A stretch of 64,000 nucleotides of DNA, from contig NW_027591235.1 of the NCBI RefSeq assembly GCF_964213995.1, positions 1 to 64,000 on the forward strand, given 5' to 3'. Positions 3,378 through 51,099 of this stretch are shown here, in pieces. Each line of letters opens with the position of its first letter. Within the stretch, counting starts at the first letter, position 1. Under the pieces are notes generated by a model. It was not told where the DNA came from and ran no database searches. It saw nothing but the letters and a program-made list of their open reading frames with translations. The position numbers were made by a program, and so were the translations under genes. This DNA is from Mustelus asterias (taxonomy: Eukaryota).

Positions 3378-4358
3378 TCAGTCCTGGATATGATTAACAG
3401 CATCATTAAGAGTAGAATCCAAACCTTGCAGTCGTTTGTGAACTCGCTGGTGTGTTAGCAGGTGGGATGACTGAATAAATCCCTTTCCACAGACATTACA
3501 GGTGAACGGCCTCTCCCCAGTGTGAACTCGCTGGTGTTTCAGAAGATAAGATAAATGAGAAAATCCCTTCCCACAGACAGAGCAGGTAAGTGGCCTCTCC
3601 GCACTGTGAACTTTCTGGTGTGTCAGCAGGTTGGATGACTGACTGAATCCCTTCCCACACACAGAGCAGGTGAACGGCCTCTCCCCAGTGTGAACTCGCT
3701 GGTGATTCAATAAGTTGGATGAACGAGTGAATCCCTTCCCACAGTCTGAGCAGGTGAAGGGCCTCTCCCCAGTGTGAATTCTCTGGTGGTTCAATAGGGC
3801 AGATGGACGGCTGAATCCCTTCCCACACACACAGCAGGTGAATGGCCTCTCCCCAGTGTGAGCATATTGGTGCGTTAGCAGATCCTTTTTACTTTTAAAG
3901 CTCTTCGCACAGTGGGAACAATTAAAAAGTTTGTTATCAGAGTGAACAAGTTGATGTGTCTGCAAGTGGGATGACTGAATGAATCCTTTCCCACACACAG
4001 AGCAGGTGAACGGTCTCTCCCCAGTGTGAATTCGTTGGTGTGTCAGCAGATCCTTTTTGCATTTAAAACTCTTCTCACAGTCAGAACATGTAAACATTCT
4101 CTCATCAGTGTGAACAAGTTGGTGTGTCACAATGTGGGATGAGCGAGTGAATCCCTTCCCACACACAGGACAGGTGAACGGCCTCTCCCCAGTGTGAACC
4201 CGTTGGTGAGTCAGAAGGTTGTATGAATGGGTGAATCCCTTCCCACAGACGGAGCAGGTGAACGGTCTCTCCCCAGTGTGACTGCGCCGATGAACTTCCA
4301 GTTGTGATGGGAAACCGAATCCCTTCCCACAATCCACACATTTCCACGGTTTCTCCAT
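3378..4358 (-). CDS. C2H2 zinc-finger protein, 11 fingers, no visible effector domain
   Basis: 326-aa ORF MEKPWKC... with 11 CxxC...HxxxH fingers and TGERP linkers; ATG in CACCATGG context. Confidence 0.9.
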
Positions 4359-5339
4359 GGTGCGGGTGTCCTTGTGTTTCTCCAGGTTGGATGATCAGTT
4401 CAAGCCTCATCCACACACACAACATACACGTAGTTTCACCCTGCTGTGAACTGTGATGTTTTTTCAGGCTGTGTAACTGGTTAAAGCTCTTTCCACATTC
4501 AGTTCACTGGAACACTCTCACTCGGGTGTGTGTTTGTCTCGATGCTTTTCCAGTCACAGTGATGTTTAATTTCTTTGCCCACAGGCAGAACAGACAAATA
4601 TTTCTCTTTCTATATTCAAAGACCAATGATATTCAGCTCCGAAGGAACTGAATGACTTTGTCAGATGTGATGTCCGGTTTGAATTTTCTGTCTGCCAATC
4701 TTTCACTTCCAATATCCTGTAAAAACAGTTTAGAAAAGTCATCACTGTCAGAACACGATACAAACTCTGAACAGACAATTCTAGTTCGTCTGGAACATTT
4801 TTTCCTCTCTTGTTCCCCCAAATCTGTAAATCTCCGTCCCACACACTCTCCCTCTTCCCTGGGCTGAAATCCAAACCCATCTCTACCATTTCTTTCCTCC
4901 ACTCCCAGTTTTCTCCCTCCCTCTCCTCTGTCTGGGTTCAGTTCTCCAGCTCCTGTCTGCAGACTGACAATAAAACCAATGGGTCTTATTGGGGATGTTG
5001 GGGCCTCCAGCGGGTGTTTGTGAATCCTTCCCGCCCACCTCCCAGGGTTTCCTTCCTTCCCAGAGATCAGAACCCTCATTGATTTGAGGCCAAAGTGTAA
5101 CCTCTTATTTATTGTCCCCCTCCCCCATCCTCTGATGTGAACCATCCTCCAGTGGCTGAGCCAGGATGGGGCCGCTAACCTGGGCCTGTTCCCGGGAGGG
5201 AGGGAGGGAGAAGCCCCGCAGCTGCAAACCAGGGAGCTGACAATGATTCTGAAGGGTTTGCGGATCCACAAAGTGTTTCCAAATCCTCCCAGCCACCGCC
5301 GAACGCTGACTCCGCTTCTCCGGGACAAACAAGCGCCAA

Positions 5340-5613
5340 GGCCAGCAATGACACTGCGCATGCTCCACATCACAATGCCCGGGAGCTGATTGACGCCAGC
5401 TCCGGACCAATAGGAAGAGGGGGCGGGACTGGAGGACCGAGCGGGAGCGGCTGGTCCTCCAACCAATCGGAGTGAATGAGGGGCGGGACCTGAAGCATGC
5501 GCAGTGCGGGTAATGGCGGCGGCGGCGGCGGACGGACGGTTTCAACTTGGAAGCGAGAACAATACAAGGTAGAGGGCGGCGCGCGGGGAATGATAAATGT
5601 GGCGGGTGGGTGG
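5340..5613. promoter_or_regulatory. CpG-island promoter module (copy 1)
   Basis: Inverted NRF1-like sites CACTGCGCATGCT (5352..5364) and AGCATGCGCAGTG (5494..5506) enclose two CCAAT and two GGGGCGGG boxes; a YY1-like AATGGCGGC follows. Paralogs lie at about 14100 and 48000. Confidence 0.75.
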
Positions 5614-8301: not shown

Positions 8302-8976
8302 TCACTCATGAGCATTTTGGTGTCTCAGCAGGGCGGATGAAACTCTGAAACCCTTCCCACACTGAGAGCAGGTGAATGGTCTCTCCCCAGTGTGAACTCG
8401 CTGGTGTGTCCGCAGGGTGGATAATTGACTGAACCCCTTCCCACACTGAGAGCAGGTGAACGGTCTCTCCCCAGTGTGAACTCGCTGGTGAGTCCGCAGG
8501 GTGAATAAATCAGTGAATCCCTTCCCACACTGAGAGCAGGTGAACGGTCTCTCCCCAGTATGAAGGCGCTGGTGCGTCTGCAGGTTAGATAATTGACTGA
8601 ACCCCTTCCCGCACTGAGAGCAGGTGAACGGTCTCTCCCCAGTGTGAACTCGCTGGTGCTTCTGCAGGTTGGATAATTGACTGAACCCCTTCTCACACTG
8701 AGAGCAGGTGAACGGCCTCTCCCCAGTGTGAACTCGCTGGTGTCTCTGCAGCTGGGATACCCGAGTGAATCCCTTCCCACACTGAGAGCAGGTGAAGGGC
8801 CTCTCCCCAGTGTGAGCTCGCTGGTGTCTCTGCAGCTGGGATACCCGAGTGAATCCCTCCCCACACTGAGAGCAAGTAAATGGTCTCTCCCCAGTGTGGC
8901 TGTGCCGATGATCTTCCAGCTCTGATGGGGCTCTGTATCTCTTCCCACAGTCCCCACATTTCCATGGTTTCTCCAT
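8302..8976 (-). CDS. C2H2 zinc-finger protein, 8 fingers
   Basis: ORF from ATG 8976 (MEKPWKC) is 224 aa (8 x 28) and intact. Confidence 0.88.
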   Translation of the reverse strand: MEKPWKCGDCGKRYRAPSELEDHRHSHTGERPFTCSQCGEGFTRVSQLQRHQRAHTGERPFTCSQCGKGFTRVSQLQRHQRVHTGERPFTCSQCEKGFSQLSNLQKHQRVHTGERPFTCSQCGKGFSQLSNLQTHQRLHTGERPFTCSQCGKGFTDLFTLRTHQRVHTGERPFTCSQCGKGFSQLSTLRTHQRVHTGERPFTCSQCGKGFRVSSALLRHQNAHE

Positions 8977-10130
8977 GGTGCAGGTGTTCTTTCCTTTCTC
9001 TTCAGTTGAACACTCGTCCACACACAGAACAGTCCCCCCACCCCCGCTGTGAATGGTGTGATATTTATTGCTGTGTAACTGGTTAAAGCTCTTGAGTCAA
9101 TGCACTAGAACATACTCACTCCAGTGTTGCAGCGTGTTGGCACTTTTCCAGTCACACTGATGTTTGAAATCTTTTCAAGTCACCAGACCGGACAACCATT
9201 TCTCCTTGATTTAAAGGCCGATGATATTCAGGTCCCGAGGAATATGACTCTGTCAGATCTAGACACAACGTCTGAGATTTCGGTCTGTGATTCCTCTTTC
9301 AATTTCCTGTAAAACAAGTTTGCAGAGGTCATCAGTGTCAGTGCAGGATAGAAATTCAGAACAGACAATTCTAATTTCTATGGAACATTCTTTCCTCCCT
9401 CCAGACTCGAAACATTGGCTCTATTCTCTCTCTATCTGGGGGATAGCGTGGGAAATGATGCTGCGGTAGATCAGCCAATTCTCAATGAATGGTTGAGGCA
9501 GTTCGATGGGCTGAATGGCCAACCGCAGCTCCTGTTTCTTATGATTTGTGTGTGGTGGACAGGAAGCAGTGAGCATGGATCTGTCAATCAGCCTCAATCA
9601 GTACCTTCAGGAGAATTGGGAGGGTGAATATTAGATACAGCAGAGTGAGAATGGAGGGAGAGGGTGTGGGATGGAGATTCACAGCTTTGGGGATGAGAGA
9701 GGAAAGAATGTTCATTGGAAATTAGAATTGTCTGTTCTGAATTTCTATCCTGTGCTGACATTGATGATGTTTGTAAATTCCTTTTGCAGGATATCAGAAG
9801 GTGAAGATTTAAAGACGAATATCAAACCAAACCTCACATCAAAATCTAACATAGTCACTCAGTTCATTGGGACCTGAATATCATCGAGCTTTGAATCTAG
9901 AATGGAAATGTTTCTCTGCTCTGTCTGCTTCAGGAGATTTTAAACATCAGTGTGACTGGAAAAGCACCGAGACACACACACACTGAAACATGCACACACC
10001 TGAGTGACTGTGGAAAGAACTTTAACCAGTTAAACAGCCTGAAAATACATTGCAGCAGAGAGACCGCACCCATGTTATGTTGTAACTGAACTAATTGTCA
10101 AGCCTGGAGAGTCACAAGGACACCCGCACC

Positions 10131-10722
10131 ATGGAGAAATTGTGTAAATGTGGGGACTGTGGGAAAGGATTCAGGTTCCCATCTGCACTGGAAACTCATC
10201 GGCGCAGTCACACTGGAGAGAGACCATTCACCTGCTGTGTGTGTGGGAAGAGATTCACTCAGTTATCCCATTTACAAACACACCAGGGAGTTCACACTGG
10301 GGAGAGACCATTCACCTGCTGTGTGTGTGGGAAAGGATTCACTCGGTTAAACAATCTGCTGACCGACCAGCGCATTCACACCGGGGAGAGACCGTTCACC
10401 TGCTGTGTGTGTGGGAAGGGATTCACTCAGTTGCCCAACCTGTTGAGCCACAAGGTCACTCACACCCAAGACAGACCCTTTAAATGCTCTGACTGTGGGA
10501 GTGGCTTCAAAAGCTCTCGAGAACTGATGGTCCACCAACCCATTCACACTGACGAGAGACTGCTTAGCTGCTCTCACTGCACAAAGAGGTTTAGGAGGTC
10601 ATCCACATGGCAGAGACACCAGCGAGTTCACACTGGGGACAGACCGTTCACCTGCTCTGTGTGTGGGAAATGGATTCAATCGGTCATCCAACCTGCAGCG
10701 ACACCAACAAGTTCACAAGTGA
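10131..10722 (+). pseudogene. C2H2 zinc-finger gene, 7 fingers, damaged
   Basis: Starts MEKLCKC. Finger 3 has His>Asp, and a frameshift in finger 7 (GGGAAATGGATTC) precedes the family stop CAAGTGA. Confidence 0.75.
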
Positions 10723-10740
10723 TTGCAGGGGTTGGATTCT

Positions 10741-10773
10741 TTCTCTCTCAATCTTTCTCTCTCTCTCTCTCTC
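10741..10773. repeat. (CT)n microsatellite at a tail-to-tail ZNF junction
   Basis: TTCTCTCTCAATCTTTCTCTCTCTCTCTCTCTC joins two convergent ZNF remnants. Confidence 0.8.
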
Positions 10774-10919
10774 AGCAGATTCGATGAATGATTGAATCCC
10801 TTCCCACAAGTGGAGCATATGAACGGTCTCTCCCCGGTGTGACTGCGTCGATGAGATTCCACCCCAGATGGGGCTCTGAATCCCTTCCCACAGTCTCCAC
10901 ATTTCCATGGTTTCTCCAT
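10774..10919 (-). pseudogene. Truncated C2H2 zinc-finger gene (1.5 fingers)
   Basis: [48 protein letters not shown] breaks at the microsatellite; the 5' leader is internally deleted. Confidence 0.8.
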
Positions 10920-11474
10920 GGTGTCGGAGTCCTTGTGTCTCTCCACAATCAGTGCACTGGAACACTCTGATACGGGTGTGAGAATCTCAGTGCTTTTCCA
11001 GTCAAAACCTCTCCTTCCAATATCCACTGAAAGGAGTTTACAAAAATCATCACTGTCAGCACATGATAGAAATTCAAAACAGACAATTGTAGTTTCTATG
11101 GAACATTCTTTAAATCTCCACCCACGCCCCTCACACATACACTCTCTCTCTCATTCCATTTAGCATTCTGCGGCACGGTGGCACAGTGGTTAGCACCATC
11201 AGCTCCAAGTTCCCCTCCAACCCACACACCATCCTGACTTGTCTGACATCCAGGACTAAGAGAACAGAAATGTTTTCCATATAAATACTGGGAAGTCTGA
11301 ACCCATTGTCTTCAGTCCCCACGACAAACTCCACTCCCTGTCGGAGCCGGAACCAGGCTGTTCACAACCATGGTGAAATATTTCACTCCAGGATGAGCTT
11401 CCAGCCACATCATCATCAAGACTGCCTATTTCCACCTCAGTGACATCGTCCGACGCCACCCAGTCTCAACTCAT

Positions 11475-13355
11475 TAGACCATAAGACACAGTAACAGAAT
11501 TAGGCCACTCGGCCCATCGAGTCTGCTCCGCCATTCAATCTTGGCTGATATTTTTCTCATCCCCATTCTCCTGCCTTTTCCCCATAATCCCTGATCCCCT
11601 CATTAATCAGGAACCTATCTATCTCTGTCTTAAAGACACTCAATGACCCGGCCTCCACAGCCTTCTGCAGCAAAGAGTTCCACAGATTCACCATTCTCTG
11701 GCTGAAGAAATTCCTCCTCATCTCTGTTTCAGAGGATCGTCCCTTTAGCCTGAGGTTGTGCCCTCTATTTCTAGCTGTTCCTACTAGTGGAAACATTCTC
11801 TCCACGTCCACTCTATCCAGGCCTCGCCGTATCCTGTAAGTTTCAATAAGATCCCCCCTCATCCTTATAAACTCCGATGAGTACAGATCCAGAGTCCTGA
11901 ACTGTTCCTCATAGAACAAGCTCTTCATTCCAGGGATCATTCTTGTGAACCTCCTCTGGACCTTTTCCAAAGCCAGCACATCCTTCCTTAGATATGGGGA
12001 CCAAAACTGCTCACAACAGTCCAAATGGGGGCTGACCAGAGCCTTACGCAGCCTCAGAAATATATCCCTGCTCTTGTATTCCAGGCCTATCGACATGAAT
12101 GCTAACATTGCATTTGCCTTCCTAACTGCCAACTGAACCTGCACGTTAACTTTAAGAGAATCTTGAACAATGACTTCCAGGTCCCTTTGTGTTTCTGATT
12201 TCCTCAGCATTTCCCCATTTAGAAAATAGTCTGTGCCTCCATTCCTCCTTCCAAAGTGCATAACCTCACACTTCTCCACATTGTATTCCATCTGCCGCTT
12301 CTTTGCCCATTCTCCTAACCTGTCCAAGTCCTTCTGCAGCCCCCCTGCTTCCTCGTTACTACCTCTCCCTCTACATATCTTTGTATCATCTGCAAACTTA
12401 GCAACAGTGCCTTCAGTTCCTTCCTCCAAATCGTTAATGTATATTGTGAAAAGTTGCGGTCCCAACACTGACCCCTGAGGCACACCACTGGTCACCGGCT
12501 GCCATCCTGAGAAAGACCCCTTTATCCCCACTCTCTGCCTTCTGCCAGCCAATCCTCTATCCATGCCAGGATCTTACCCTTAACACCATAGGCACTTAAC
12601 TTATTTAACAGTTTCCTCTGCACCACCTTGTCAAAGGCCTTCTGGAAATCTAAATAAATCAGGTCCACTAGTTCTCTTTTATCTAACTTCTTTGTTACCA
12701 GATATGATCTAAGGAGATCCATCAAAGATGCCAAAAGACAATACTGGACCAAGCTAGAGTCCCAGGCTAGCCACACCAATCCCCGCTGACTATGGCAAGG
12801 TCTGCAAGACATAACAGTCTCCAAGGTGAAGATATGTAAAATCGCCGGCTCCAACGCTCCTCTCCCTGATGAGCTCAATGCATTCGTTTTGAGCAAGAGG
12901 TCAGCGAGAGCATGCCCTCCACCCTGGAAGCCCTGGATGAACCTGTATCTGGGGTCTCCATTGCAGATGTCAGAGCAGCTTTCTTCAAGGTCAACCCACA
13001 GAAAGCAACTGGCCCGGATGGGATACCCGGATGTGCATTCAGATCCTGTGCGGATCAGCCGGCAGAGGTATTCACAGACATCTTCAACCTCTCTTTACAA
13101 CAATCTGAGGTCCCTATGTTTTCTCTGTATAGCGCACAAGAAACAATACTTTTCACTGTATGTTAATACATGCGACAATAATAAATCAAATCAAATCAAA
13201 AGCTCCTCAAAGAACTCTAACAGATTTGTCAGACATGACCTCCCCTTGACAAAGCCGTGCTGACTCAGTCCTACTTTATCCTGCACTTCCAAGTACTCTG
13301 CGATCTCAGCTTTAATAATGGACTCGAAAATCTTGGCAATGACCGAAGTCGGGCA
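11475..13355 (-). mobile_element. 5'-truncated CR1 LINE (RT C-terminal half), interrupted at 12699..13200
   Basis: SGVPQGSVLGP...YINDL...KFADDTK...WNSL. CR1 sequence resumes at 13201 after the insert. Confidence 0.9.
12699..13200 (+). mobile_element. Rex1/Babar-type LINE derivative, internally deleted
   Basis: LPDELNAF...KVNPQKATGPDGIPG..RSCADQ.AEVFTDIFNLSL is joined directly to a 3' UTR ending AATAAATCAAATCAAATCAAA. Confidence 0.7.
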
Positions 13356-13363
13356 AATTTGGA

Positions 13364-13588
13364 ACCCTCACCCATTCCATTGTGACCTCACACTCTCACC
13401 CATTCCATTGTGACCTCACACTCTCACCCATTCCATTGTGACATCACACTTTCACCCATTCCATTGTGACGTCACACTCCGACCCATTCCATTGTGACGT
13501 CACACCCTCACCCATTCCATTGTGACATCACACACTCACACATTCCATTGTGACGTCACACCCTCACCCATTCCATTGTGACATCACT
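13364..13588. repeat. 28-bp minisatellite, 8 copies
   Basis: Unit CCCTCACCCATTCCATTGTGACNTCACA; TGTGAC recurs at 13381, 13409, 13437, 13465, 13493, 13521, 13549 and 13577. Confidence 0.95.
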
Positions 13589-13636
13589 CCCCGATCACAA
13601 TCCCTGCCGGCCTCCCACATGCAGCCTCAATGGCGG

Positions 13637-14004: not shown

Positions 14005-14280
14005 CCACCCACCCGCCACATTTAGCATTCCCCGCACGCCGCCCTCTACCTCGGATTGATCTCGCTTCCAGGTTAAAACTGTCCGTCTGTCCGTCGCCAT
14101 TACCCGCACTGCGCATGCTTCAGGTCCCGCCCCTCATTCACTCCGATTGGTTGGAGGTCCAGCCGCTCCAGCTCGGTCCTCCAGCCCCGCCCCCTCATCC
14201 TATTGGCCCGGAGCTGCCGTCAATCAGCCCCCGGGCATTGTGATGTGGAGCATGCGCAGTGTCATTGCTGTCCTTGGCGC
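14005..14280. promoter_or_regulatory. CpG-island promoter module (copy 2, inverted)
   Basis: Reverse complement of 5340..5613 with the same NRF1-like, CCAAT and GC boxes. Confidence 0.75.
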
Positions 14281-15249
14281 TTGTTTGTCCCGGAGAAGCG
14301 GAGTCAGCGTTAGGCGGTGGCTGGGAGGATTTGGAAACACTTTGTGGATCCGCAAACCCTTCAGAATCATTGTCAGCTCCCTGGTTTGCAGCTGCGGGGC
14401 TTCTCCCTCCCGGGAACAGGCCCAGGTTAACGGCCCCATCCTGGCTCAGCCACTGGAGGATGGTTCACATCAGAGGATGGGGGAGGGGGACAATAAATAA
14501 GAGGTTACACTTTGGCCTCAAATCAATGAGGACTCTGATCTCTGGGAAGGAAGGAAACCCTGGGAGGTGGGCGGGGAGGATTCACAAACACCCGCTGGAG
14601 GCCCCAACACCCCCAGTAAGACCCATTGGTTTTATTGTCAGTCTGCAGACAGGAGCTGGAGAACTGAACCCAATCAGAGGAGAGGGAGGGAGAAAACTGG
14701 GAGTGGAGGAAAGAAATGATGCAGATGGTGAGATGGGTTTAAGCCCAGGGAGAAGGGAGAGTGTGTGGGACGGGGATTTACAGATTTTGGGGAACAAGAG
14801 AGGAAAAAATGTTCCGGAGAAACTAGAATTGTCTGTTCAGGATTTCTATTCCGGACTGACAGTGATGACTTTTCCAAATTTTTTTTTACAGGATATTGGA
14901 AGTGGAGGATTGGTAGACAGAAAACTCAAACGAACATCATGACTGGCAAAGTCACTTTGTTCATTCAGAGCTGAAGATCATTGGTCTTTGAATGTGGGAG
15001 GAGAAATGTTTGACTCTTCTGTCTGTCGGCAAAGATTTTAAACATCAGTGTGACCGGAAAAGCATTGAAACAAACACACACCCGATTGAGAGTGTTCCAG
15101 TGAACTGACTGTGGAAAGAGCTTTAACCAGTCCACAGCCTGAAGAAACATCACACAGTTCACAGCAGGGTGAAACTACATGTATGTTGTGTGTGTGGACG
15201 AGGTTTCAACTGATCATCCAACCTGGAGAAACACAAGGGCACCAGCACC

Positions 15250-16309
15250 ATGGAGAAACCGTGGAAATGTGTGGATTGTGGGAAAGGATTCAGTTTCCCA
15301 TCACAACTGGAAGTTCATTGGTGCAGTCACACTGGGGAGAGACCATTCACCTCCTCCGTTTGTGGGAAGGGATTCACCCATTCATACAACCTTCTGACTC
15401 ACCAAAGGGTTCACACTGGGGAGAGGCCGTTCACCTGCCCTGTGTGTGGGAAGGGATTCACTCGCTCATCCCACATTGTGACACACCAACTTGTTCACAC
15501 TGATGAGAGAATGTTTCCATGTTCTGACTGTGGGAAGAGTTTTAAATGCAAAAAAGATCTGCTGACACACCAACGTATTCACACGGGAGAGACCATTCAC
15601 CTGCTCTGTGTGTGGGAAAGGATTCATTCAGTCATCCCACCTGCAGACACATCAACTTGTTCACTCTGACAACAAACTTTTTAATTGTTCCGACTGCGAA
15701 GAGCTTTAAAAACAAAAAGGATCTGCTGACGCACCAATATACTCACACTGGGGAGAGGCCATTCACCTGCTGTGTGTGTGGGAAGGGATTCAGCCGTCCA
15801 TCTGCCCTACTGAACCGCCAGAGAATTCACACTGGGGAGAGGCCTTCACCTGCTCAGACTGTGGGAAGGGATTCATTAATTCATCCAACCTTCTGACACA
15901 CCAGCAGGTTCACAGTGAGGAGAGGCCATTCACTTGCTCCGTGTGTGGGAAGGGATTCACTCTTTCATCCAACTTATTGAACCACCAGCGGGTTCACACT
16001 GGGGAGAGGCCGTTCACCTGCTCCATGTGTGGGAAGGGATTCAGTCAGTCATCCAACCTGCTGACACATCAGAGAGTTCACAGTGCGGAGAGACCATTTA
16101 CCTGCTCTGTCTGTGGGAAGGGATTTTCTCATTTATCTTATCTTCTGAAACACCAGCGAGTTCACACTGGGGAGAGGCCGTTCACCTGTAATGTCTGTGG
16201 AAAGGGATTTATTCAGTCATCCCACCTGCTAACACACCGGCGAGTTCACAAGGGACTGCAAGGTTTGGATTCTACACTTATCGATGCTGTTAATCATATC
16301 CAGGACTGA
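15250..16309 (+). pseudogene. C2H2 zinc-finger pseudogene, 12 fingers; inverted paralog of 3378..4358
   Basis: Same finger series and the same [14 protein letters not shown] tail, with frameshifts near 15586, 15692 and 15843. Confidence 0.88.
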
Positions 16310-21330: not shown

Positions 21331-22047
21331 TCACCCACGTTGGCAGCAAGTTCAATATCATCAGTCACAACCCCCCTGTATCTTCACTAACCGAATCAAT
21401 CCATTTGAAACATTTTTAGTCGAGAATGTCGCTATATTTCTGTTAGACTGGCAGTCTGCATGGAGATTTTCAGCTGTGTGTGTCCAGGACAGGAAGCAGT
21501 GAGCATGGATCTGTCAATCAGCCTCAATCAGCACCTTCAGGAGAATTGGGAGGGTGAATATTAGATACAGCAGAGTGAGAATGGAGGGAGAGTGTGTGGG
21601 ATGGAGATTTACAGCTTTTGGGGAATGAGAGTGGAAAGAATGTTCCACAGAAACTAGAATTGTCTGTTCTGAATTTCTATCCTGTACTGACTGTGATGAA
21701 TTTTGTAAATTGTTTTTACAGGATATTAGAAGAGGAATCACACCGATAAATCTTAACGATCACATCTCGATCTGACAGAGTCACTCGATTCCTTGGAAAC
21801 TAAATATCCTCAGCCTCTGAATGGGAAGGAGAAATGTTTGACTGCAAGATTTTAAGCAGCAGTGTGACTGGAAAAACACCGGGACACAAACACACACCTG
21901 AGTGAGAGTGTTCCAGTGCACTGACAGTGGAAAGAGCTTTAACCAGTGACACAGCCTGAAAATACATTGCAGCATTCACAGCAGGGAGAGACCATACCGT
22001 GTTCTCTGTGTGGACAAGGTTTCAAATGATACAAGGAGACTGAAAAT

Positions 22048-22890
22048 ATGGAAAAACCATGGAAATGTGAGGACTGTGGGAAGAGATACAAAGCGCCCTC
22101 TCTACTGGAAGCTCATCGGCACAGCCACACTGGGGAGAGGCCGTTCACCTGCTGGGTGTGTGGGAAGGGATTCATTGATTCATCCACTCTGCAGAGACAC
22201 CAGCAAGTTCACACTGGTGAGAGTGCATTCACCTGCTGTCAGTGTGGGAAGGGATTTACTCAGATATCAAGCCTGCAGACACACCAGCGAGTTCACACTG
22301 GGGAGAGGCCATTCACCTGCTCTCAGTGTGGGAAGGGATTCAGTAAGTCATCCAACCTACAGAAACACCAGCGAGTTCACACAGGAGAGAGGCCATTCGG
22401 CTGCTCTGCATGTGGGAAAAGATTCACTCAGTTATCTCAGCTGCGGGCACACCAGCGAGTTCACACTGGGGAGAGACCATTCACCTGCTCTCAGTGTGGG
22501 AAGGGATTCACTCAATTGTACAGCCTGCAGACACACCAGCGCAATCACACTGGGGAGAGGCCATACAGTTGCTTTCAGTGTGGGAAGGGATTCATTCATT
22601 TATCAAACCTGCAGACACACCAGCGAGTTCACACTGGGGAGAAGCCATTCACCTGCTCTCAGTGTGGAAAGGGATTCACTCAGTTATCTAATCTGCGGAG
22701 ACACCAGCGAGTTCACTCTGGAGAGAGGCCGTTCACCTGCCCCGTGTGTGGGAAGAGATTCACTCGGTTATCCACCCTGCAATCACACCAGCGAGTTCAC
22801 ACCGGGGAGAGACTGTTCATCTGCTCTCAGTGTGGGAAGGGATTCTGTGATTCATCCACCCTGCTGAAACACCAACAAGTTCACAAGTGA
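22048..22890 (+). CDS. C2H2 zinc-finger protein, 10 fingers
   Basis: Intact 280-aa ORF MEKPWKC...HQQVHK. Confidence 0.9.
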
Positions 22891-28627: not shown

Positions 28628-30625
28628 TCACTTGTGAACTCACTGGTGTTTCACCAAGTTTGCTGACTGAGTGAATCCCTTCCCAGTCAGAGCAGGTGAC
28701 CAGCCTCTGCCTGGTGTGAACTCACTGGTGGGACATTAGTTCCCAAGAGCTTTTGAAGCCACGCCCACATTTAAAGGGTCTCTCCTGGGTGTGATGATGT
28801 TGTGTCTGGGCAGGCTGGATAACCGAGTAAATCCTTTCGCACACACCGAGCAGGTGAATGGTTTCTCCCCGGTGTGAACTCACTGGTGTTTCAGCAGTGT
28901 TGATGATATTCTAAACCTCCTTGAACAGTGAGAGCAGCTGAACGGCCTCTCCCCGGTGTGAATGTGCTCGGGGATCATCAGTTCCTGAGAGCTTCTGAAG
29001 CCGGCCTCTCAGGCAGAGCATTTAAAGGGGCTCTCCTTGGAGTGAGTGGCTTTGTGTCTCAGCAGGCTGGATGAAGCAGTGAATCCCTTCCCACACACAG
29101 AGCAGGTGAATGGTCTCTCCCCGGTGTGAACTCGCTGATGTTCCCCCAGACTGGATGACCTTTTAAATCTCTTTGTTCAGTGAGAGCAGCTGAATGGTCT
29201 CTCCTCAGTGTGAGTGCGCTGGTGGGACACCAGGTCCTGAGAGCTTTTGAATCCGCTCCCACAGTCAGAGCATTTAAATGGTCTCTCATTAGCGTGAGTG
29301 ACTTTGTGTCTGAGCAGGCTGGATGACTGAGTGAATCCCTTCCCACACACAGAGCAGGTGAACGGCCTTTCCCCGGTGTGAACTCGCTGGTGTGTCTGCA
29401 GGTTGTATAATGTTCTAAATCTCTTTGTGCAGTGAGAGCAGCTGAACGGTCTCTCCTCAGTGTGAATGCGCTGGTGGGACACCAGATCCTGAGAGCTTTT
29501 GAATCCACTCCCACAGTCAGAGCATTTAAACGGTTTCTCATTGGTGTGAGTGGCTTTGTGTTTCTGCAGGCTGGATGACTGAGTGAATCCCTTCCCACAC
29601 ACAGAGCAGGTGAATGGTCTCTCCCCAGTGTGAACTCGCTGATGTTCCCACAGGCTGGATGACCTTTTAAATCTCTTTGAGCAGTGAGAGCAGCTGAACG
29701 GTCTCTCCTCAGTGTGAATGCGCTGGTGGGACACCAGATCCTGAGAGCTTTTGAATCCGCTCCCACAGTCAGAGCATTTAAATGGTCTCTCATTGGTGTG
29801 AGTGACTTTGTGTGTGTGCAGGTTTGATGAATGAGTGAATCCCTTCCCACACACTGAGCAGGTGAACGGTCTCTCCCCGGTGTGAACTCGCTGGTGTCTC
29901 CGCAGGTCAGATGAAGTTCTAAATTTCTTTGAGCAGTGAGAACAGCTGAACGGTCTCTCCTCAGTGTGAATGCGCTGGTGGATCATCAGTTCCCCAGAGC
30001 TTTTGAAACCACTCCCACAGTCAGAGCATTTAAATGGTCTCTCATTGGTGTGAGTGAGATTGTGTTTCAGCAGGTGGGATAACTGAGTGAATCCCTTCCC
30101 ACACACAGAGCAGGTGAATGGTCTCTCCCCAGTGTGAACTCCCTGGTGTGTTTGTAAATGGGATGACTGAGTGAATCCCTTCCCGCACACAGAGCAGGTG
30201 AATGGTCTCTCCCCAGTGTGAACTCGCTGGTGTATCTTCAGGTTGGATGAAGTTCTAAATTTCTTTGTGCAGTGAGAGCAGGTGAACGGTCTCTCCTCAA
30301 TGTGAGTGCGCTGGTGGGACACCAGTTCCCCAGAGCTTTTGAAGCCACTCCCACAGTCAGAGCATTTAAATGGTCTCTCAATGGTGTGAGTGAGATTGTG
30401 TTTCTGCAGGCTGGGTAACTGACTGAATCCCTTCCCACACACAGAGCAGGTGAATGGCCTCTCCCCAGTGTGAACTCGTTGGTGTCTCTGCAGATTAGGT
30501 AAGTCAGTGAATCCCTCCCCACACACAGAGCAGGTGAATGGCCTCTCCCCAGTGTGACTGCGTTGATGAATTTCCAGAAGAGATGGGAACATGAATCTCT
30601 TCCCACATTTCCATGGTTTCTCCAT
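28628..30625 (-). CDS. Long C2H2 array: 16 intact fingers before a premature TGA (29177..29179); decayed fingers continue to the ancestral stop at 28628
   Basis: ATG at 30625. Finger 1 has lost three codons (WKCGKRF). TGC>TGA occurs in finger 18, and finger-like sequence continues beyond it. Either a truncated gene or a pseudogene. Confidence 0.8.
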
Positions 30626-31409
30626 GGTGCGGGTGTCCTTGTGACTCTCCAGGTTAAACAATCAGTTAAATCTCACACAGAACACGGGTACAGTCTCTCC
30701 CTGCTGTGAATGCTGCGATGTATTTTCAGGCTGTGTAACTGGTTAAAGCTCTTTCCACACTCAGTGCACTGGAACACTCTCACTCTGGTGTGTGTATTTC
30801 ACTGCATTTCTCGTAAAAGTGATGTTTACAATCTTTTGAAGCCAAGAGGCCAAACAAACATTTCTCCTGCTAGCTTCAAAGGCCGATGATATTCAGGTCT
30901 CAAGAAGTCGAGTCACTCTGTCAGATCTAGATGTGATGTTGGAGATTTCTGTCTGATTTCTCCTTGTCTAATATCCTGTAAATCAATTTAGAAAAAAAAT
31001 CACAATTCAGAATACGATCAATATTCAAATCTACATTGCTAGTTTATGGAGCGTTCATTAAAGACACAGTCATGGAGCATTAAACTTGCCGAGCAGGGCC
31101 TCCCGTATCAGCACACAGGCAGCTGCTTTGTGAGACTGCCGGCAGTACAGACAAGTCAGAGATAAGGGTGTCCTCAGAAGTGGGATTCATTGTGAAAGCT
31201 CAGGGACGGTTGATAAGATGCAGCAATTCTATGATTCTAATGAACATTCTTTCCTCTCCCATTCCCCAAAAGCTGTAAATCTCCATCCCACACACTCTCC
31301 CTCCATTCTCACTCTGCTGTATCTAAGATTCACCCTCCCAATTCTCCTGAAGGTGCTGATTGAGGCTGATTGACAGATCCATGCTCACTGCTTCCTGTCC
31401 AGCACAGAA

Positions 31410-33988: not shown

Positions 33989-36913
33989 CTAGACCAATCG
34001 TTTGTATCCCTCCATTCCCAGGCTGCTCATGTGACTATCCAGGTAAGTCTTAAACGATGTCAGCGTGCCTGCCTCCACCACCCTACTTGGCAGCGCATTC
34101 CAGGCCCCCACCACCCTCTGTGTAAAAAACGTCCCTCTGATGTCTGAGTTATACTTCGCCCCTCTCAGCTTGAGCCCGTGACCCCTCGTGATCGTCACCT
34201 CCGACCTGGGAAAAAGCTTCCCACTGTTCACCCTATCTATCCCCTTCATAATCTTGTACACCTCTATCAGATCTCCCCTCATTCTCCGTCTTTCCAAGGA
34301 GAACAACCCCAGTCTACCCAATCTCTCCTCATAGCTAAGACCCTCCATACCAGGCAACATCCTGGTAAACCTTCTCTGCACTCTCTCTAACGCCTCCACG
34401 TCCTTCTGGTAGTGCGGCGACCAGAACTGGACGCAGTACTCCAAATGTGGCCTAACCAGCGTTCTATACAGCTGCATCATCAGACTCCAGCTTTTATACT
34501 CTATACCCCGTCCTATAAAGGCAAGCATACCATATGCCTTCTTCACCACCTTCTCCACCTGTGTTGCCACCTTCAAGGATTTGTGGACTTGCACACCTAG
34601 GTCCCTCTGTGTTTCTATACTCCTGATGACTCTGCCATTTATTGCATAACTCCTCCCTACATTATTTCTTCCAAAATGCATCACTTCGCATTTATCCGGA
34701 TTAAATTCCATCTGCCACCTCTCCGCCCAATTTTCCAGCCTATCTATATCCTGCTGTATTGCCTGACAATGCTCTTCGCTATCCGCAATTCCAGCCATCT
34801 TTGTGTCATCCGCAAACTTGCTGATTACACCAGTTACACCTTCTTCCAAATCATTTATATATATCACAAACAGCAGAGGTCCCAGTACAGAGCCCTGCGG
34901 AACACCACTGGTCACAGACCTCCAGCCGGAAAAAGACCCTTCGACCACTACCCTCTGTCTCCTATGGCCACGCCAGTTCTCCACCCATCGAGCCACTTCT
35001 CCTTGTATCCCATGAGCCTTAACCTTCTTAACCAACCTGCCATGTGGGACTTTGTCAAATGCCTTACTGAAATCCATATAGACGACATCCACGGCCCTTC
35101 CTTCATCAACCGTTTTTGTCACTTCCTCAAAAAACTCCACCAAATTTGTAAGGCACGACCTCCCTCTTACAAAACCATGCTGTCTGTCACTAATGAGATT
35201 GTTCTGTTCTAAATGCACATACATCCTGTCTCTAAGAATCCTCTCCAACAACTTCCCTACCACGGACGTCAAGCTCACCGGCCTATAATTTCCTGGGTTA
35301 TCCCTGCTACCCTTCTTAAACAACGGGACCACATTCGCTATCCTCCAATCCTCAGGGACCTCACCCGTGTCCAAAGAAGCGACAAAGATTTCCGTCAGAG
35401 GCCCAGCAATTTCCTCTCTCGTCTCCCTGAGCAGTCGAGGATAGATGCCATCAGGCCCTGGGGCTTTGTCAGTTTTAATGTTCCCTAAAAAACCTAACAC
35501 TTCCTCTCTCGTAATGGAGATTTTCTCTAACGGGTCAACACCTCCCTCCGAGACACTCCCGGTTAACACGCCCCTCTCCTTCGTGAATACCGATGCAAAG
35601 TATTCATTTAGGATCTCCCCTATTCCCTTGGGTTCTAAGCATAATTCCCCTCCTTTGTCCCTGAGAGGTCCGATTTTCTCCCTGACAACTCTTTTGTTCC
35701 TAACGTATGAATAGAATGCCTTAGGATTCTCCTTAATCCTGCCTGCCAAGAACATCTCGTGCCCTCTTTTTGCCCTTCTAACTCCCCGTTTGAGATCTTT
35801 CCTACTCTCTCTGTATTCCTCCAGAGCTCCATCTGTTTTCAGTTGCCTGGACTTAACGTACGCCTCCCTTTTCATTTTAATCAGATCCTCAATTTCCCTG
35901 GTTATCCACGGCTCTCGAATCCTACCTTTCCTATCTTTCCTTTTTACAGGCACATGCCTATCCTGCAGCCTTATCAATAGTTCCTTAAAAGACTCCCACA
36001 TGCCAGACGCGGACTTACCCTCGAACATCCTCTCCCAATCAACATCCACCAATTCCTGCCTAATCCGGCTATAGTCAGCCTTCCCCCAATTTAGCACCCT
36101 GCCCGTAGGACAGCACTCATCCTTGTCCATTACTATCCTAAAGTTAACAGAGTTGTGGTCACTATTTGCCACATGTTCCCCTACCGAAACTTTGACGACC
36201 TGACCGGGCTCATTTCCCAGAACTAGGTCCAGTATAGCCCCCTCTCTAGTCGGGCTATCTACATACTGTTCCAAAGAACCTTCCAGTACGCATTTTTCAA
36301 ATTCCTCCCCGTCCGGTCCCCCAGCTCTAAGCACTTTCCAGTCTGTGCCAGGGAAATTAAAGTCCCCCACTACAACAACCCTATTTTTTCTGCACCTATC
36401 CAGAATCTCCTGACATATCCTTTCCTCCACTTCCCGTGGGCTGTTGGGTGGTCTGTAGTACACCCCCAGCATAGTGACTGCACCCTTCCTGTTTCTGAGT
36501 TCCACCCACAGCGACTCAGTACATGACCCCTCTAAGTTGTCTACCCTCTGCACCGCGGTAATATGCTCCTTAACTAATATCGCTACTCCCCCACCTTTTT
36601 TAGCCCCTCCTCTGTCTCGCCTAAAACACTGATACCCCGGAATATTCAGCTGCCAGTCCTGTCCTTCTTTTAACCAAGTTTCCGTCACCGCAACCACATC
36701 CAAATTCCGCACAAGCATTAAGGCCCTAAGTTCGTCTGTTTGACCCGTTACACTCCTCGCATTGAAGCAGATGCACTCCAGACCTCCAGGCCCAGTCAGG
36801 TCCTCCTCCTCCAGAGTGCTCCTCTTCTTAGCTAGCCTTGCCCTGGCCCCCAGCTCGACCCCAGCCTCAGTATTTACTGACCTCCTGTTTTGTTCCCCAC
36901 CCCCCTGCCACAC
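33989..36913 (-). CDS. CR1 ORF2 (APE endonuclease plus reverse transcriptase), about 974 aa
   Basis: NARS, VTETWL, YRPP, GDFN and SDH endonuclease motifs; DFSKAFD, GVPQGSVLGP and FADD RT motifs. No stops; begins at the TAGTG overlap with the ORF1 stop. Confidence 0.95.
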   Translation of the reverse strand: MWQGGGEQNRRSVNTEAGVELGARARLAKKRSTLEEEDLTGPGGLECICFNARSVTGQTDELRALMLVRNLDVVAVTETWLKEGQDWQLNIPGYQCFRRDRGGAKKGGGVAILVKEHITAVQRVDNLEGSCTESLWVELRNRKGAVTMLGVYYRPPNSPREVEERICQEILDRCRKNRVVVVGDFNFPGTDWKVLRAGGPDGEEFEKCVLEGSLEQYVDSPTREGAILDLVLGNEPGQVVKVSVGEHVANSDHNSVNFRIVMDKDECCPTGRVLNWGKADYSRIRQELVDVDWERMFEGKSASGMWESFKELLIRLQDRHVPVKRKDRKGRIREPWITREIEDLIKMKREAYVKSRQLKTDGALEEYRESRKDLKRGVRRAKRGHEMFLAGRIKENPKAFYSYVRNKRVVREKIGPLRDKGGELCLEPKGIGEILNEYFASVFTKERGVLTGSVSEGGVDPLEKISITREEVLGFLGNIKTDKAPGPDGIYPRLLRETREEIAGPLTEIFVASLDTGEVPEDWRIANVVPLFKKGSRDNPGNYRPVSLTSVVGKLLERILRDRMYVHLEQNNLISDRQHGFVRGRSCLTNLVEFFEEVTKTVDEGRAVDVVYMDFSKAFDKVPHGRLVKKVKAHGIQGEVARWVENWRGHRRQRVVVEGSFSGWRSVTSGVPQGSVLGPLLFVIYINDLEEGVTGVISKFADDTKMAGIADSEEHCQAIQQDIDRLENWAERWQMEFNPDKCEVMHFGRNNVGRSYAINGRVIRSIETQRDLGVQVHKSLKVATQVEKVVKKAYGMLAFIGRGIEYKSWSLMMQLYRTLVRPHLEYCVQFWSPHYQKDVEALERVQRRFTRMLPGMEGLSYEERLGRLGLFSLERRRMRGDLIEVYKIMKGIDRVNSGKLFPRSEVTITRGHGLKLRGAKYNSDIRGTFFTQRVVGAWNALPSRVVEAGTLTSFKTYLDSHMSSLGMEGYKRLV

Positions 36914-42325: not shown

Positions 42326-43000
42326 TCACTCGTGAATTGGTTGGTGTCTCAGCAGGGTGGATGAAGCTCTGAAACTCTTCCCACACTGAGAGCAGGTGAA
42401 TGGTTTCTCCCCAGTGTGAACTCGCTGATGTGTCTGCAGGGCGGATGACTGAGTGAATCCCTCCCCACACTGAGAGCAGGTGAATGGTCTCTCCCTGGTG
42501 TGAACTCGCTGGTGTCCTCGCAGGCTGGATAAGTCAGTGAATCCCTTCCCACACACAGAGCAGGTGAACGGTCTCTCCCCAGTGTGAATTCGCTGGTGTC
42601 CTCGCAGGCTGGATAAGTCAGTGAATCCCTTCCCACACACAGTGCAGGTGAACGGTCTCTCCCCAGTGTGAACTCGCTGGTGTGTTCGCAAGTGGGATGT
42701 CTGAGTGAATCTCTTCCCACACTGAGAGCAGGTGAACGGTCTCTCGCCAGAATGAACTTGCTGATGTGTCTGCAGGCTGGATAACCAAGTGAAACCCTCC
42801 CCACAGTGAGAGTAGGTGAAAGGCCTCTCCCCAGTGTGAACTCGCTGGTGTGTCCGCAGATTCGATAACTGACTGAATCCCTTGCCACAGACACAGCAAG
42901 TGAATGGTCTCTCCCCAGTGTGACTGCGCCGATGAGCTTCCTGCTGAGATGGGGATATGAATCCCTTCCCACAGTCCCCACATTTCCACGGTTTCTCCAT
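42326..43000 (-). CDS. C2H2 zinc-finger protein, 8 fingers (finger 3 Cys>Tyr)
   Basis: Open 224-aa ORF from ATG 43000; same flanks as the gene at 8302..8976. Confidence 0.85.
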
Positions 43001-44439
43001 GATGCGGGCATCCTTGTGACTCTCCAGGTTAAACAATCAGTTAAATCTCACACAGAACACGGGTACAGTCTCTCCCCGCTGTGAATGCTGCGATGTATTT
43101 TCAGGTAGTGTAACTGGTTAAAGCTCTTACCACTCTCAGTGCACTGGAACACTGTCACTCGGGTGTATCTGTGCCTTGGTGCTTTTCCAGTCACACAAAT
43201 GATTAAAGTTTTTGAAGCAGACAGAACAGGAAAACATTTCTCCTTCGAGAATCAAAGATCGATATATTCAGATCCCGATGAATTGAGTGAGGATGTCAGA
43301 TGTTGATGTGACATTAGATTTGAGATTTCTGTCTGTAAATCCTACCCTTCCAATATCCTGTAAAAGGAGTTTACAGAAGTGATCAGTGTCAGTACAGGAT
43401 AGAAATTCAGAACAATTCTAGTTTCTCTGGAACATTCTTTCCTCTCTCATTCTCCAAAAGCTGTGAATCTCCATCCCACACACTCTCCCTCCATTCTCAC
43501 TCTGCTGTATCTAATATTCACCCTCCCAATTCTCCTGAAGGTGCTGATTGAGGCTGATTGACAGATCCATGCTCACTGCTTCCTGTTCTGGACACACACA
43601 GCTGGAAATCTCCATGCAGGCTGCAGCCTAACAGAAATATGGCTACATTCCTCGACTCAAAATGTTTTAAATGGATTGTTTCAGTTAGTGAAGATGCAGG
43701 GGGTTGTGACTGATGATGATATTGAACTTGCTGCCAATGTGGGTGATCATAGAGTTTTACAGCATGGAAAGAGGCCCTTCGGCCCATCGTGTTTGTGCTG
43801 GCCATCAAGGACCGTTCTATTCCAATCCCATTTTCCACTCTGTGTGCGTAACCTTGTATGCCATGGCATTTCAAAAGCTTAACTAAATTCTTCTTAAATG
43901 TTGTGAAGGTTCCCACCTCTACTACTCTTTCAGGCACTGAGTTCCAGATTCCCTCCACCCTCTGGGTCAAAAGATTTCTCCTCACTTCTCCTATAAACCT
44001 CCTGCTCCTGAAATTAAATCCATGCCCCTGGTTATTGACCCCTCAACTAAAGAGAAAAGTTCCTTCCTGTCCCCCCTATCTGTGCCCCTCAAAATTTTAT
44101 ACACCTCAATCAGGTCCCCCTCACCCTTCCCTGCTCCAAGAAAAACAACGCCAGCCTATCCAGCCTCTCTTCATAGCTGAAACACTCCAGCCCAGCCAAC
44201 ACCCTGGGGAATTTCCTCTGCACCTTCCCCAGTGCAATTACATCCTTCCTATAGTGTGGCGACCAGAACTGCACACAGTACTCCAGCTGTGGCCTATCCA
44301 GTGTTTTATACAGCTCCATCATAACCTCCCTGCCCTTATATTCAATGATGTGGAGATGCCGGCGTTGGACTGGGGTAAACACAGTAAAAGTTTTAACAAC
44401 ACCAGGTTAAAGTCCAACAGGTTTATTTGGTAGCAAATG

Positions 44440-47168: not shown

Positions 47169-47643
47169 GTTCTGTGGAACATTGTTTCCTCACTTGTTCC
47201 TGTAAAGCAGTAAATCCTCATCCTGAACACTTTCCCTCCTCCCTGTCCTGCAACCAACTCCCACATTAACCAACCATCTCATATTTCAATGGATTGTCCC
47301 ATGACTCCAGTGTGCCAGGCTGCATGGTGTATGGGCGCTGTTTCACCCATAAGATGGATCTGTGCAGCACCCTCTTCCAACTGTTCTGGCTGCCAACCAG
47401 CCCGTGCCCACCCACACAGTTCCAGCAGCACCGCACACAATACTGCTCACCTGCTCCGACAGACTCATGAAGGATGTCCTTTTATTTTCTCTGAGAGAGT
47501 TGGTCAGCCTGGCAAACCCAGTGTGAAATATCTTCACAAATCTTTTCTCCCACCCTCTATTCTGGCTGGGTTCAGTTCTTTTGTACAGAGTGAATATAAA
47601 ATCAATTATTTTCTCTCCTGGTCACTGCAGGGAGCTGCAGCTT

Positions 47644-49434: not shown

Positions 49435-49920
49435 ATGGGGAGAGAGTGTGTGGGGTGGAGATTTACAGCTTTTGGGGAATGAGAGAGGAAAGAATGTTCC
49501 ATAGAAATTGTCTGTTCTGAATTTCTATCCTGTACTGACACTGATGACTTTTGGAAACTCATTTTCCAGGATATTGAAAGAGAAATCACAGACTGAAATC
49601 TCAAACGTCACGTCAAGACGTGACAGAGTCATATTCCTTGGGACCTCAATATCATCAGACTTTGAATCCAGAAGGAGAAATGATTGTCCAGTCTGTCGAT
49701 TTGAAAGGATTTGAAATGTCAGTGTGAGTGAAAAAGCATCAACACACTGCCACACTTGAGTGAGAGTGCTCCAGTGCACTGACTAAAGAGCTTTAACCAG
49801 TTACACAGTCTGAATAAATATCACACCATTCACAGCGGGTAGAGACTGTAATCTTGTTCTGTGTGTGGACGAAGTTTCAACTAATTGTCCACTCAAGAGA
49901 CAGGTAAGGACACCTGCACC

Positions 49921-51099
49921 ATGGAGAAACCATGGAAATGTGCAGACTGTGGGAAGGGATACAGATCCCCATCAGAGCTGGAAACTCATCGGCGCAGCCA
50001 CACTGGGGAGAGACCATTCATCTGCTCTCACTGTCGGGAAGGATTTAATCAGTTATCCCACCTGCAGTCACACCAGCGCGTTCACACTGAGGAGAGGCCA
50101 TTCACCTGCTCGCAGTGTGGGAAGGGATTCATTCAGTTATCCAGCCTGCAGACACACCAGCAAGTTCACACTGGAGAGAGGCCATTTACCTGCTCTCAGT
50201 GTGGGAAGGGATTCACTCGGTCATTCCACCTGCAGAGACACCAGCGAGTTCACACTGGGGAGAGGCCATTCACCTGCTCTCAGTGTGGGAAGAGATTCAC
50301 TCGGTCATCCCACCTGCAGAGACACCAGCGGGTTCACACTGGGGAGAGGCCATTCACCTGTTTTCAGTGTGGGAAGGGATTCACTCAGTCATCCAACCTG
50401 CGGACACACGAACGGGTTCACACTGGGGAGAGACCGTTCACCTGCTCTCAGTGTGGGCAAGAATTCACTCAGTTAGCCGACCTGCAGAGACACCAGCTAC
50501 GTCACACAGGGGAGAGGCCGTTCACCTGCTCTCAGTGTGGGAAGGGATTCACTCAGTCATCCCACCTGCGGATACACCAGCGAGTTCACACTGGGGAGAA
50601 ACCATTCATCTGCTCTCAGTGTGGGCAGGGATTCACTCAGTCATCTGACCTGCGGACACACCAGCGAGTTCACACAGGAGAGAGGCCGTTCACCTGCTCT
50701 CAGTGTGGGAAGGGATTCACTCGGTCAACCCACCTGCAGACACACCAGCGAGTTCACACTGTGGAGAAACCATTCATCTGCTCTCATTGTGGGAAGGGAT
50801 TCACAAACTCATCTGACCTGCTGACACACCAGCGAGTTCACACAGGGGAGAGGCCGTTCACCTGCTCTCAGTGTGGGAAGGGATTCACTCGGTCAACCCA
50901 CCTGCGGACACACCAGCGAGTTCACACTGGGGAGAGGCCATTCACCTGCCCTCAGTGTGGGAAGGGATTCACTCAGTCATCTGACCTGCGGATACACCAG
51001 CGAGTTCACACTGGCGAGAGACCATTCACCTGCTCTGTATGTGGGAAGGGATTCAGAGTTTCATCCCACCTGCTGAGACACCAACAAGTTCACGAGTGA
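49921..51099 (+). CDS. C2H2 zinc-finger protein, 14 fingers
   Basis: Intact 392-aa ORF (14 x 28) from CACCATGG at 49921. Confidence 0.9.

What the first reader, a model, noticed from the sequence alone, without database searches (positions are those of the whole stretch)
15040..15260. Start codon apparently born from a finger linker; the 5' leader is fossil zinc fingers
Upstream of the ATG in each complete copy the DNA still reads as 2-3 decayed fingers ([24 protein letters not shown]...CSVCGRGFN*.SNLE.HKDTRT). The ATG sits where the Gly of a TGEKP linker would be (T-M-E-K-P), mostly as CACCATGG. The family therefore appears to descend from an N-terminally truncated ancestor that re-initiated inside its own array.
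Basis: partly seen in the sequence, partly recalled or inferred. Interest (0 to 1): 0.7.

Follow-up and report, generated by a model that had tools for sequence, protein, structure and literature searches.

The report
Shark zinc-finger genes restart mid-array
About 2,300 zinc-finger gene copies in this shark genome carry an ATG where related genes have the glycine of a finger linker, with three broken fingers in front of it, so the family likely descends from one old gene that lost its front end and now makes bare DNA-binding arrays; how ribosomes reach that ATG is untested.

Summary
Confirmed and extended. The leader before ATG 15250 holds three decayed C2H2 fingers in register with it (30 of 39 leaders score ≥10 bits; 0 of 858 controls). 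The ATG fills the Gly codon of a T-x-E-K-P-W-K-C linker at 2,311 of 2,509 such sites in G000. A collinear sister family ('G-type') keeps the last leader finger open (Arg/Gln where the leaders have TGA), keeps Gly/Glu in the linker, and starts 37 codons upstream. That shows the leader was once coding. The leader now evolves as non-coding DNA (pN/pS 0.74-0.98, most indels frameshift). The fingers after the ATG are under purifying selection, with fast-changing contact residues. Predicted sawshark, horn shark and white shark proteins end at the same stop positions, so the truncation likely predates the split of living sharks. No copy with all three fingers open was found. Not shown: re-initiation versus leaky scanning, the mutational path, and targets. 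The copy at 15250 itself is frameshifted. The scan reported this family before on other DNA of this genome (e1-9534447, e1-9551152). New variant of a known process; interest 0.45.

The parts
14100..14425 (+). GC-rich promoter-like region and probable non-coding exon 1; TGCGCATGC at 14110-14118 (NRF1-like label recalled); donor GT at 14426
   Evidence: Sequence. Contigs of two runs from different studies (X1, X18) leave at 14425/14426 and rejoin at ~14987 with unknown letters between, probably paralog transcripts. No Pfam family in 3 frames of 14040-15001.
14426..14891 (+). probable intron 1, ending TTTTTTTACAG
   Evidence: Acceptor conserved across paralogs; the exact joint at 14892 was not seen. 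Some contigs also cover the intron.
14892..15002 (+). spacer at the start of the last exon; shared with the G-type sister family, whose ATG is homologous to a codon near its end
   Evidence: homologous codon in M-type copies: CTA 35, GTG 12, ATG 2 of 91
15003..15079 (+). fossil finger -3; its ATG at 15006 opens an 11-codon uORF (TAA 15039-15041); family-wide TGA at 15051-15053
   Evidence: TGA in 65 of 91 non-redundant copies
15080..15162 (+). fossil finger -2 (first Cys is TGA at 15101 in this copy; 1-nt deletion near 15130)
   Evidence: (21.8 bits)
15163..15246 (+). fossil finger -1, in frame with the ATG; family-wide TGA at 15211-15213 (helix position -1); second His lost in this copy
   Evidence: (27.7 bits); TGA in 73 of 91 copies
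15247..15270 (+). linker [11 protein letters not shown] 15250-15252 in CACCATGG at the Gly position
15250..15669 (+). 139-aa ORF, 3 intact fingers, then frameshift; finger remnants continue to ~16250 (probably a decaying copy)
3378..4720 (-). intact paralog (326 aa) with the same leader
8302..9340 (-). paralog, ATG 8976; leader more decayed (5.5 bits)
9770..10787 (+). paralog, ATG 10131
10713..11030 (-). paralog, ATG 10919; most of the leader deleted; truncated array
21700..22890 (+). paralog, ATG 22048 (context AAATATGG)
29177..30990 (-). paralog, ATG 30625
42326..43360 (-). paralog, ATG 43000
49560..51099 (+). paralog, ATG 49921

Best explanation
This is one copy of a shark C2H2 zinc-finger family of about 2,300 loci whose ATG occupies the Gly codon of a finger linker, behind three decayed fingers, and which likely descends from a single ancestor that lost the front of its reading frame. 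Shown: finger -1, the linker and the next finger are homologous to the open first and second fingers of a sister family (G-type); the leader no longer evolves as protein; the array after the ATG does. Inferred order: the linker codon became ATG in a strong ACCATGG context, the upstream fingers then took nonsense changes (CGA to TGA fits finger -1), and the truncated gene was amplified. The G-type likely shortened the same ancestor differently, by an in-frame deletion of about 144 nt (fingers -3 and -2), and starts at the end of the spacer. Ribosomes likely reach the ATG by leaky scanning past, or re-initiation after, a few short uORFs (untested). Intact copies would make finger-only proteins (median 8 fingers) that bind DNA with fast-changing specificity, likely against mobile elements by analogy with KRAB- and FiNZ-ZNFs (untested). 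The copy at 15250 is itself frameshifted.
For: Finger signal in register: 30 of 39 leaders vs 0 of 858 controls; Pfam PF00096. ATG at 2,311 of 2,509 T-x-E-K-P-W-K-C sites. Stop 13 codons upstream in 1,593 sites and Arg (CGN) in 0. G-type: 52 of the 90 loci; 14 non-redundant; codon -13 is CAA 7, CGA 4, CGC, CAG, CCA 1 each; linker Gly 8, Glu 5, Lys 1; second His CAC in 10 of 14. The M-type finger -1 consensus is 66% identical to G-type finger 1 against a mean of 58% (max 71%) to 771 internal fingers; the WKC finger is 78% against 57%. G-type is one side of a 100/98 branch, together with one AGG-linker locus. In 63 copies with ORF ≥150 aa, fingers -3/-2/-1 have 179 frameshifting indels of 218, and the first two coding fingers have 0 of 2 (these 63 were chosen for an open frame, so the coding count is partly built in). 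0 of 100 copies have an intact open finger -1. Coding fingers in 13 paralog pairs: pN/pS 0.01 at C/H/F/L, 1.38 (CI 1.04-1.81) at contact positions. Predicted proteins end at the finger -3 stop position in Pristiophorus (P0140) and Heterodontus (P0158), and at the finger -1 stop position in Carcharodon (P0155). MEKPWKC N-termini occur in Pristiophorus and Chiloscyllium. These span Squalomorphii and Galeomorphii.
Against: No living copy with all three fingers open was found (32 of 37 hits inspected), so the long ancestor is reconstructed. Gly to Met needs at least two base changes and no intermediate with an open finger -1 plus ATG survives. The finger -1 identity margin is modest, and some internal fingers score as high. 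The introns upstream of the acceptor do not align between the two families, and the tree is unrooted. The RNA evidence is fragmentary contigs from runs only guessed to be RNA, and there is no ribosome or peptide evidence. Leaders carry about 2.5 upstream ATGs, and a position-matched count showed no clear depletion. Counts may include assembly duplicates: four leaders are identical. Fossil finger -2 is better conserved than pure decay predicts.
Confidence: 0.8

Rival explanations
1. Fingers -3 and -2 were inserted (about 144 nt) into a G-type gene, disrupting it, and the downstream linker ATG rescued it; only finger -1 is a fossil of the same protein.
For: The G-type lacks exactly this block and is present across sharks. 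A stingray record (P0114) is G-like. No open three-finger form was found.
Against: The G-type N-terminus keeps the tail of finger -2 (x-T-V-H-S-G-E-K) joined to the spacer, which looks like a deletion scar. 144 nt is not a multiple of the 84-nt unit. Other in-frame deletions from the same spacer end recur (L137 group; P0156 and P0160).
Confidence: 0.1
2. The leader is still translated (stop read-through, or splicing onto an upstream coding exon), so the Met is internal.
For: Some database gene models extend through the last leader codons (P0006, P0014, P0119). One Scyliorhinus G-type model has an open spacer behind a long acidic N-terminus (P0118).
Against: Most leader indels shift the frame and new stops accumulate. 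The models' upstream parts are unrelated to each other. No Pfam domain lies upstream in two genes. The P0118 segment finds mainly the spacer in G000.
Confidence: 0.04
3. The linker first became Thr (ACG, a near-cognate start in ACCACGG) and turned into ATG repeatedly by CpG decay, so the ATG is not a single birth. This changes only the path to the ATG.
For: T-T-E-K-P-W-K-C forms occur in Heterodontus, Heptranchias and Pristiophorus records and in about 40 of 71 A[ACG]N sites in G000. ACG to ATG is one CpG step.
Against: In G000 the 10 non-ATG loci tested are scattered through the tree (10 changes; 500 of 500 shuffles as low), as expected of repeated ATG losses. Gene predictors extend upstream when the ATG is missing, which over-represents T forms among database proteins (inference).
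Confidence: 0.06

Closest known systems
KRAB/SCAN C2H2-ZNF clusters of mammals, including effector loss (Tadepally 2008, PMC2443715; passages seen)
   Same: Clustered tandem arrays of 28-aa fingers in one 3' exon; finger gain and loss by degeneration; recurrent loss of N-terminal parts
   Different: No KRAB or SCAN here. The loss reaches into the finger array itself, the start codon sits in a linker, and one truncated form was amplified to ~2,300 loci. The passages seen do not describe start-codon relocation ('start codon' 0 hits in the main text).
FiNZ-ZNFs of cyprinid fish (Wells 2023, PMC10547256; passages seen)
   Same: Large lineage-specific ZNF expansion outside tetrapods; dN/dS > 1 at base-contacting residues; two-exon layout
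   Different: FiNZ genes encode a conserved 28-aa N-terminal domain in the upstream exon; here no coding N-terminal domain was detected. Sharks are not mentioned in that paper's main text. TE silencing is shown there and untested here.
N-terminal truncation rescued by a downstream in-frame ATG (general process; recalled, no call)
   Same: Upstream nonsense change, downstream start, former coding DNA becomes 5' UTR
   Different: Here it founded a very large family, appears to be shared across sharks, and the repeat unit lets the lost part be read directly

Membership tests
Tandem C2H2 (Kruppel-type) ZNF genes | Tandem 28-aa C-x2-C-x12-H-x3-H units with TGEKP-type linkers | tested here: met
   Pfam PF00096 and PF13465
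Tandem C2H2 (Kruppel-type) ZNF genes | Purifying selection on zinc ligands, diversification at contact residues | tested here: met
   pN/pS 0.01 and 1.38 (CI 1.04-1.81), 13 pairs
KRAB-ZNF / SCAN-ZNF | KRAB or SCAN domain N-terminal to the fingers | tested here: not met
   No Pfam family in 3 sense frames of ~960 nt upstream in 2 genes; the ORF begins at the first finger
KRAB-ZNF / SCAN-ZNF | TRIM28-dependent silencing of targets | not testable with these tools
   Needs experiments
FiNZ-ZNF | 28-aa FiNZ domain in an upstream coding exon | tested here: inconclusive
   No FiNZ profile was searched. There is no N-terminal extension before the first finger and no Pfam hit upstream.
Start-codon relocation after N-terminal truncation | Upstream region homologous to open coding sequence in relatives | tested here: met
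   Finger -1 open in the G-type family; fingers -3 and -2 not found open together with it
Start-codon relocation after N-terminal truncation | Upstream region released from protein constraint | tested here: met
   pN/pS 0.74-0.98, most indels frameshift
Start-codon relocation after N-terminal truncation | Leader kept in the mRNA | tested here: inconclusive
   Contigs span 15090-15262 (X16) and 15110-15265 (X2); the runs are only guessed or unknown as RNA
Start-codon relocation after N-terminal truncation | Translation starts at the new ATG | not testable with these tools
   Indirect only: ATG retention and Kozak context

The most novel reading that the evidence does not exclude
The fossil fingers were exapted as a shared control element for ~2,000 genes. 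A short uORF starts at the Met of finger -3 and ends at or before a stop kept across shark lineages, and the DNA of finger -2 is better conserved (0.11 divergence, CI 0.10-0.12) than intron, spacer or fourfold-degenerate coding sites (0.17) without protein constraint. One leader would set translation or chromatin state for the whole family.
Probability: 0.2. Interest if true: 0.72.

Novelty: new variant of a known kind. Interest (0 to 1): 0.45.

Why it matters
It gives a readable case of a start codon arising inside a repeat array and founding what may be the largest gene family of a vertebrate lineage (size rank not tested). It also suggests that sharks expanded effector-less zinc-finger arrays with fast-changing contact residues. 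That raises the question of how such proteins act without KRAB or FiNZ. Practically, many shark gene models that extend through the leader are probably wrong at the N-terminus. I did not find this described: 9 paper searches in an open-access library only; no supplements were read, and those of PMC10547256 may hold shark ZNF counts.

Tried and rejected
No RNA holder on record was listed; the runs laid are contigs and cannot show start, strand or level. The first laying was swamped by finger repeats. RNA structure in the leader: mean z -0.51 and +0.34 in 30 copies, no signal. Selection against upstream ATGs: 8 of 117 uATGs reach the main ATG against 21% for other triplets, but this is confounded by position; the position-matched count gave 0.75 per intact copy against 0.96 per broken copy, with control triplets at 0.46-1.65, so it is not claimed. 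Special conservation of the -39 TGA: retention 0.86, rank 20 of 165 triplets; high but not outstanding, and CpG decay could explain it. Coding signature in the spacer: pN/pS 0.89, 175 of 269 indels frameshift; an older upstream coding exon is not shown. Search for an open long form: one search returned mostly generic arrays; one search gave 37 hits, of which 29 were printed, 3 had been seen earlier, and 5 multi-stretch matches were not inspected; names were looked up for 20. Rows P0111 and P0116 were left out of the species list because independence from G000 is not shown. Two of the three focal frames gave no Pfam hit on their own. No earlier findings came up by sequence or by words. No structure or complex job was run.

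Full report
1. Observation. The window is a cluster of C2H2 zinc-finger genes interleaved with LINEs. Nine copies begin M-E-K-P/L-W/C-K-C, 7 of them in CACCATGG. The genome G000 is 3.68 Gb and the closest named proteins are from sharks. A DNA profile made from 69 internal fingers finds finger signal (≥10 bits) in 30 of 39 leaders. It finds none in 39 intron stretches, 39 reversed leaders or 780 shuffles; the protein-level profile gives 26 of 39 against 0. The hits are in register, so the ATG falls on the second codon of the linker. Pfam PF00096 confirms finger -1 of this copy (E 2.7e-4, below the curated cut-off), finger -2 of a window paralog (E 1e-6), and all three fingers in L150, whose leader is still in one frame. 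In this copy finger -3 spans about 15003-15079, finger -2 15080-15162 and finger -1 15163-15246, with stops at 15051, 15101 and 15211. The copy is broken downstream by three frameshifts against its 96%-identical paralog at 3378-4358(-).

2. Family size. T-x-E-K-P-W-K-C sites number 2,509 in G000. Of these 2,311 have ATG at x, 102 have G-N-N and 71 have A-[ACG]-N. With the ATG anchor, codon -13 is a stop in 1,593 sites and CGN in none. Counts may include assembly duplicates (four identical leaders). Of 100 sampled copies, 71 have ORFs ≥150 aa, the median finger number is 8, and none has an intact open finger -1.

3. The sister family. Many of the non-ATG sites fetched (52 of 90 loci, 14 non-redundant) belong to a G-type family that starts 37 codons upstream of the linker. 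Its consensus is collinear with the M-type from the acceptor through the array, except for one gap of 146 nt. The gap is 144 nt and in frame if an AC repeat is one unit shorter, as in 10 copies; 40 copies have the longer form. In the G-type, finger -1 is open: codon -13 is CAA or CGA in 11 of 14, the second His is kept in 10 of 14, and the linker has Gly in 8 and Glu in 5. TGA is one CpG transition from CGA. The G-type ATG corresponds to CTA or GTG in most M-type leaders. Finger -1 is closer to G-type finger 1 (66%) than to internal fingers (mean 58%, max 71%), and the WKC finger is 78% against 57%. In a tree of 69 rows (45 of 91 M-type drawn at random, 14 G-type, 10 others), G-type plus one AGG locus is one side of a 100/98 branch; the root is unknown. 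The G-type N-terminus keeps the tail of finger -2, which I read as a deletion scar (inference). The introns do not align beyond about 20 nt from the acceptor.

4. Mode of evolution. In 91 non-redundant copies the fossil fingers show pN/pS 0.98, 0.88 and 0.74, with 280 frameshifting indels of 344. The first two coding fingers show 0.57-0.61 with far fewer indels (measured against a consensus, copies not independent). In 13 disjoint paralog pairs, coding fingers have pN/pS 0.01 at C/H/F/L, 0.50 elsewhere and 1.38 (CI 1.04-1.81) at helix positions -1, 2, 3 and 6. One result does not fit plain decay: finger -2 diverges 0.109 at non-CpG sites against 0.167 (intron), 0.169 (spacer) and 0.175 (fourfold sites). 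It shows no codon pattern and no RNA-fold signal. Gene conversion, local mutation rate or a nucleic-acid-level role could each explain it.

5. Age. MEKPWKC starts occur in Pristiophorus and Chiloscyllium, and the same linker occurs in Heterodontus. A profile of the spacer gave 37 hits. Predicted proteins from Pristiophorus and Heterodontus end exactly at the finger -3 stop position, and one from Carcharodon ends at the finger -1 stop position. Since these span Squalomorphii and Galeomorphii, the truncation likely predates the split of living sharks (over 200 million years; recalled). G-type records occur in Cetorhinus, Stegostoma, Chiloscyllium, Heterodontus, Carcharodon and Scyliorhinus. A stingray record is G-like. 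No open three-finger form was seen in the 32 hits inspected, and no chimaera name appeared.

6. Transcript. No run is on record as RNA. Contigs of two runs from different studies leave at the GT of 14426 and rejoin in the leader, and contigs span the -39 stop and the ATG. This fits a non-coding exon 1 spliced to a last exon that keeps the leader (358 nt here), but the joints have unknown letters between them and the intron is also covered. No Pfam domain lies upstream in two genes. Leaders hold about 2.5 upstream ATGs, mostly short uORFs (median 8 codons); the finger -3 ATG region has one in 33 of 46 intact copies. Leaky scanning or re-initiation would both work; neither is tested. This copy has two overlapping out-of-frame ATGs near 15180.

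7. Comparison. It works like the clustered KRAB- and FiNZ-ZNF expansions (PMC2443715, PMC10547256; passages only), but it fails the KRAB/SCAN test and shows no N-terminal domain. The whale shark paper reports KRAB families among those lost in cartilaginous fishes (PMC8455134, passages). Effector loss and finger degeneration are known. A linker-derived start with fossil fingers as UTR was not found in nine searches (listings only for the other papers; no supplements read). The scan's own notes e1-9534447 and e1-9551152 give the same reading for other pieces of this genome; I saw them after forming mine, and they are not independent support.

8. Verdict. New variant of a known kind; interest 0.45. 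The boldest reading, an exapted regulatory leader, has probability 0.2.

Noticed in passing
window 33989-37941 (-): Apparently intact two-ORF LINE: 909-aa ORF with RVT_1 and Exo_endo_phos, and a 342-aa ORF with a GDSL/SGNH esterase domain; other RT-like fragments at 11557-12564, 46157-47266, 53253-55009.
   Followed up: partly
window 14040-16300(+) vs 3378-5580(-); 47622-48029(-): Inverted near-duplicate of the whole gene (96% in the CDS) and a third copy of its exon 1 and intron start.
   Followed up: partly
window 14040-14942 (+): A 300-codon stop-free frame runs through promoter, exon 1 and intron. The paralog has a similar long frame with a frameshift; no Pfam hit; probably a GC-rich chance frame.
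   Followed up: partly
L137, L138, L140, L142, L143, L145: A third start type: the G-type ATG joined directly to the WKC linker 9 codons upstream, finger -1 deleted.
   Followed up: no
L062/L095/L122, L096, L098: The first (WKC) finger is tandemly duplicated, giving internal T-G-E-K-P-W-K-C linkers behind an M-type leader.
   Followed up: no
family leader, -171..-87 from the ATG (window 15080-15162): Fossil finger -2 is more conserved than intron or synonymous sites, without a protein or RNA-fold signal. Unexplained.
   Followed up: partly
P0118 (Scyliorhinus torazame): G-type gene model with an open spacer behind a long acidic N-terminal region; could be a real longer form or a prediction artefact.
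   Followed up: partly
window 13370-13590: Tandem repeat of about 24 nt upstream of the promoter.
   Followed up: no
window 57350-57748(+), 63521-63919(-), 28874-29104(-): Further finger arrays, some with stops, without a matched M-type start in the window.
   Followed up: no
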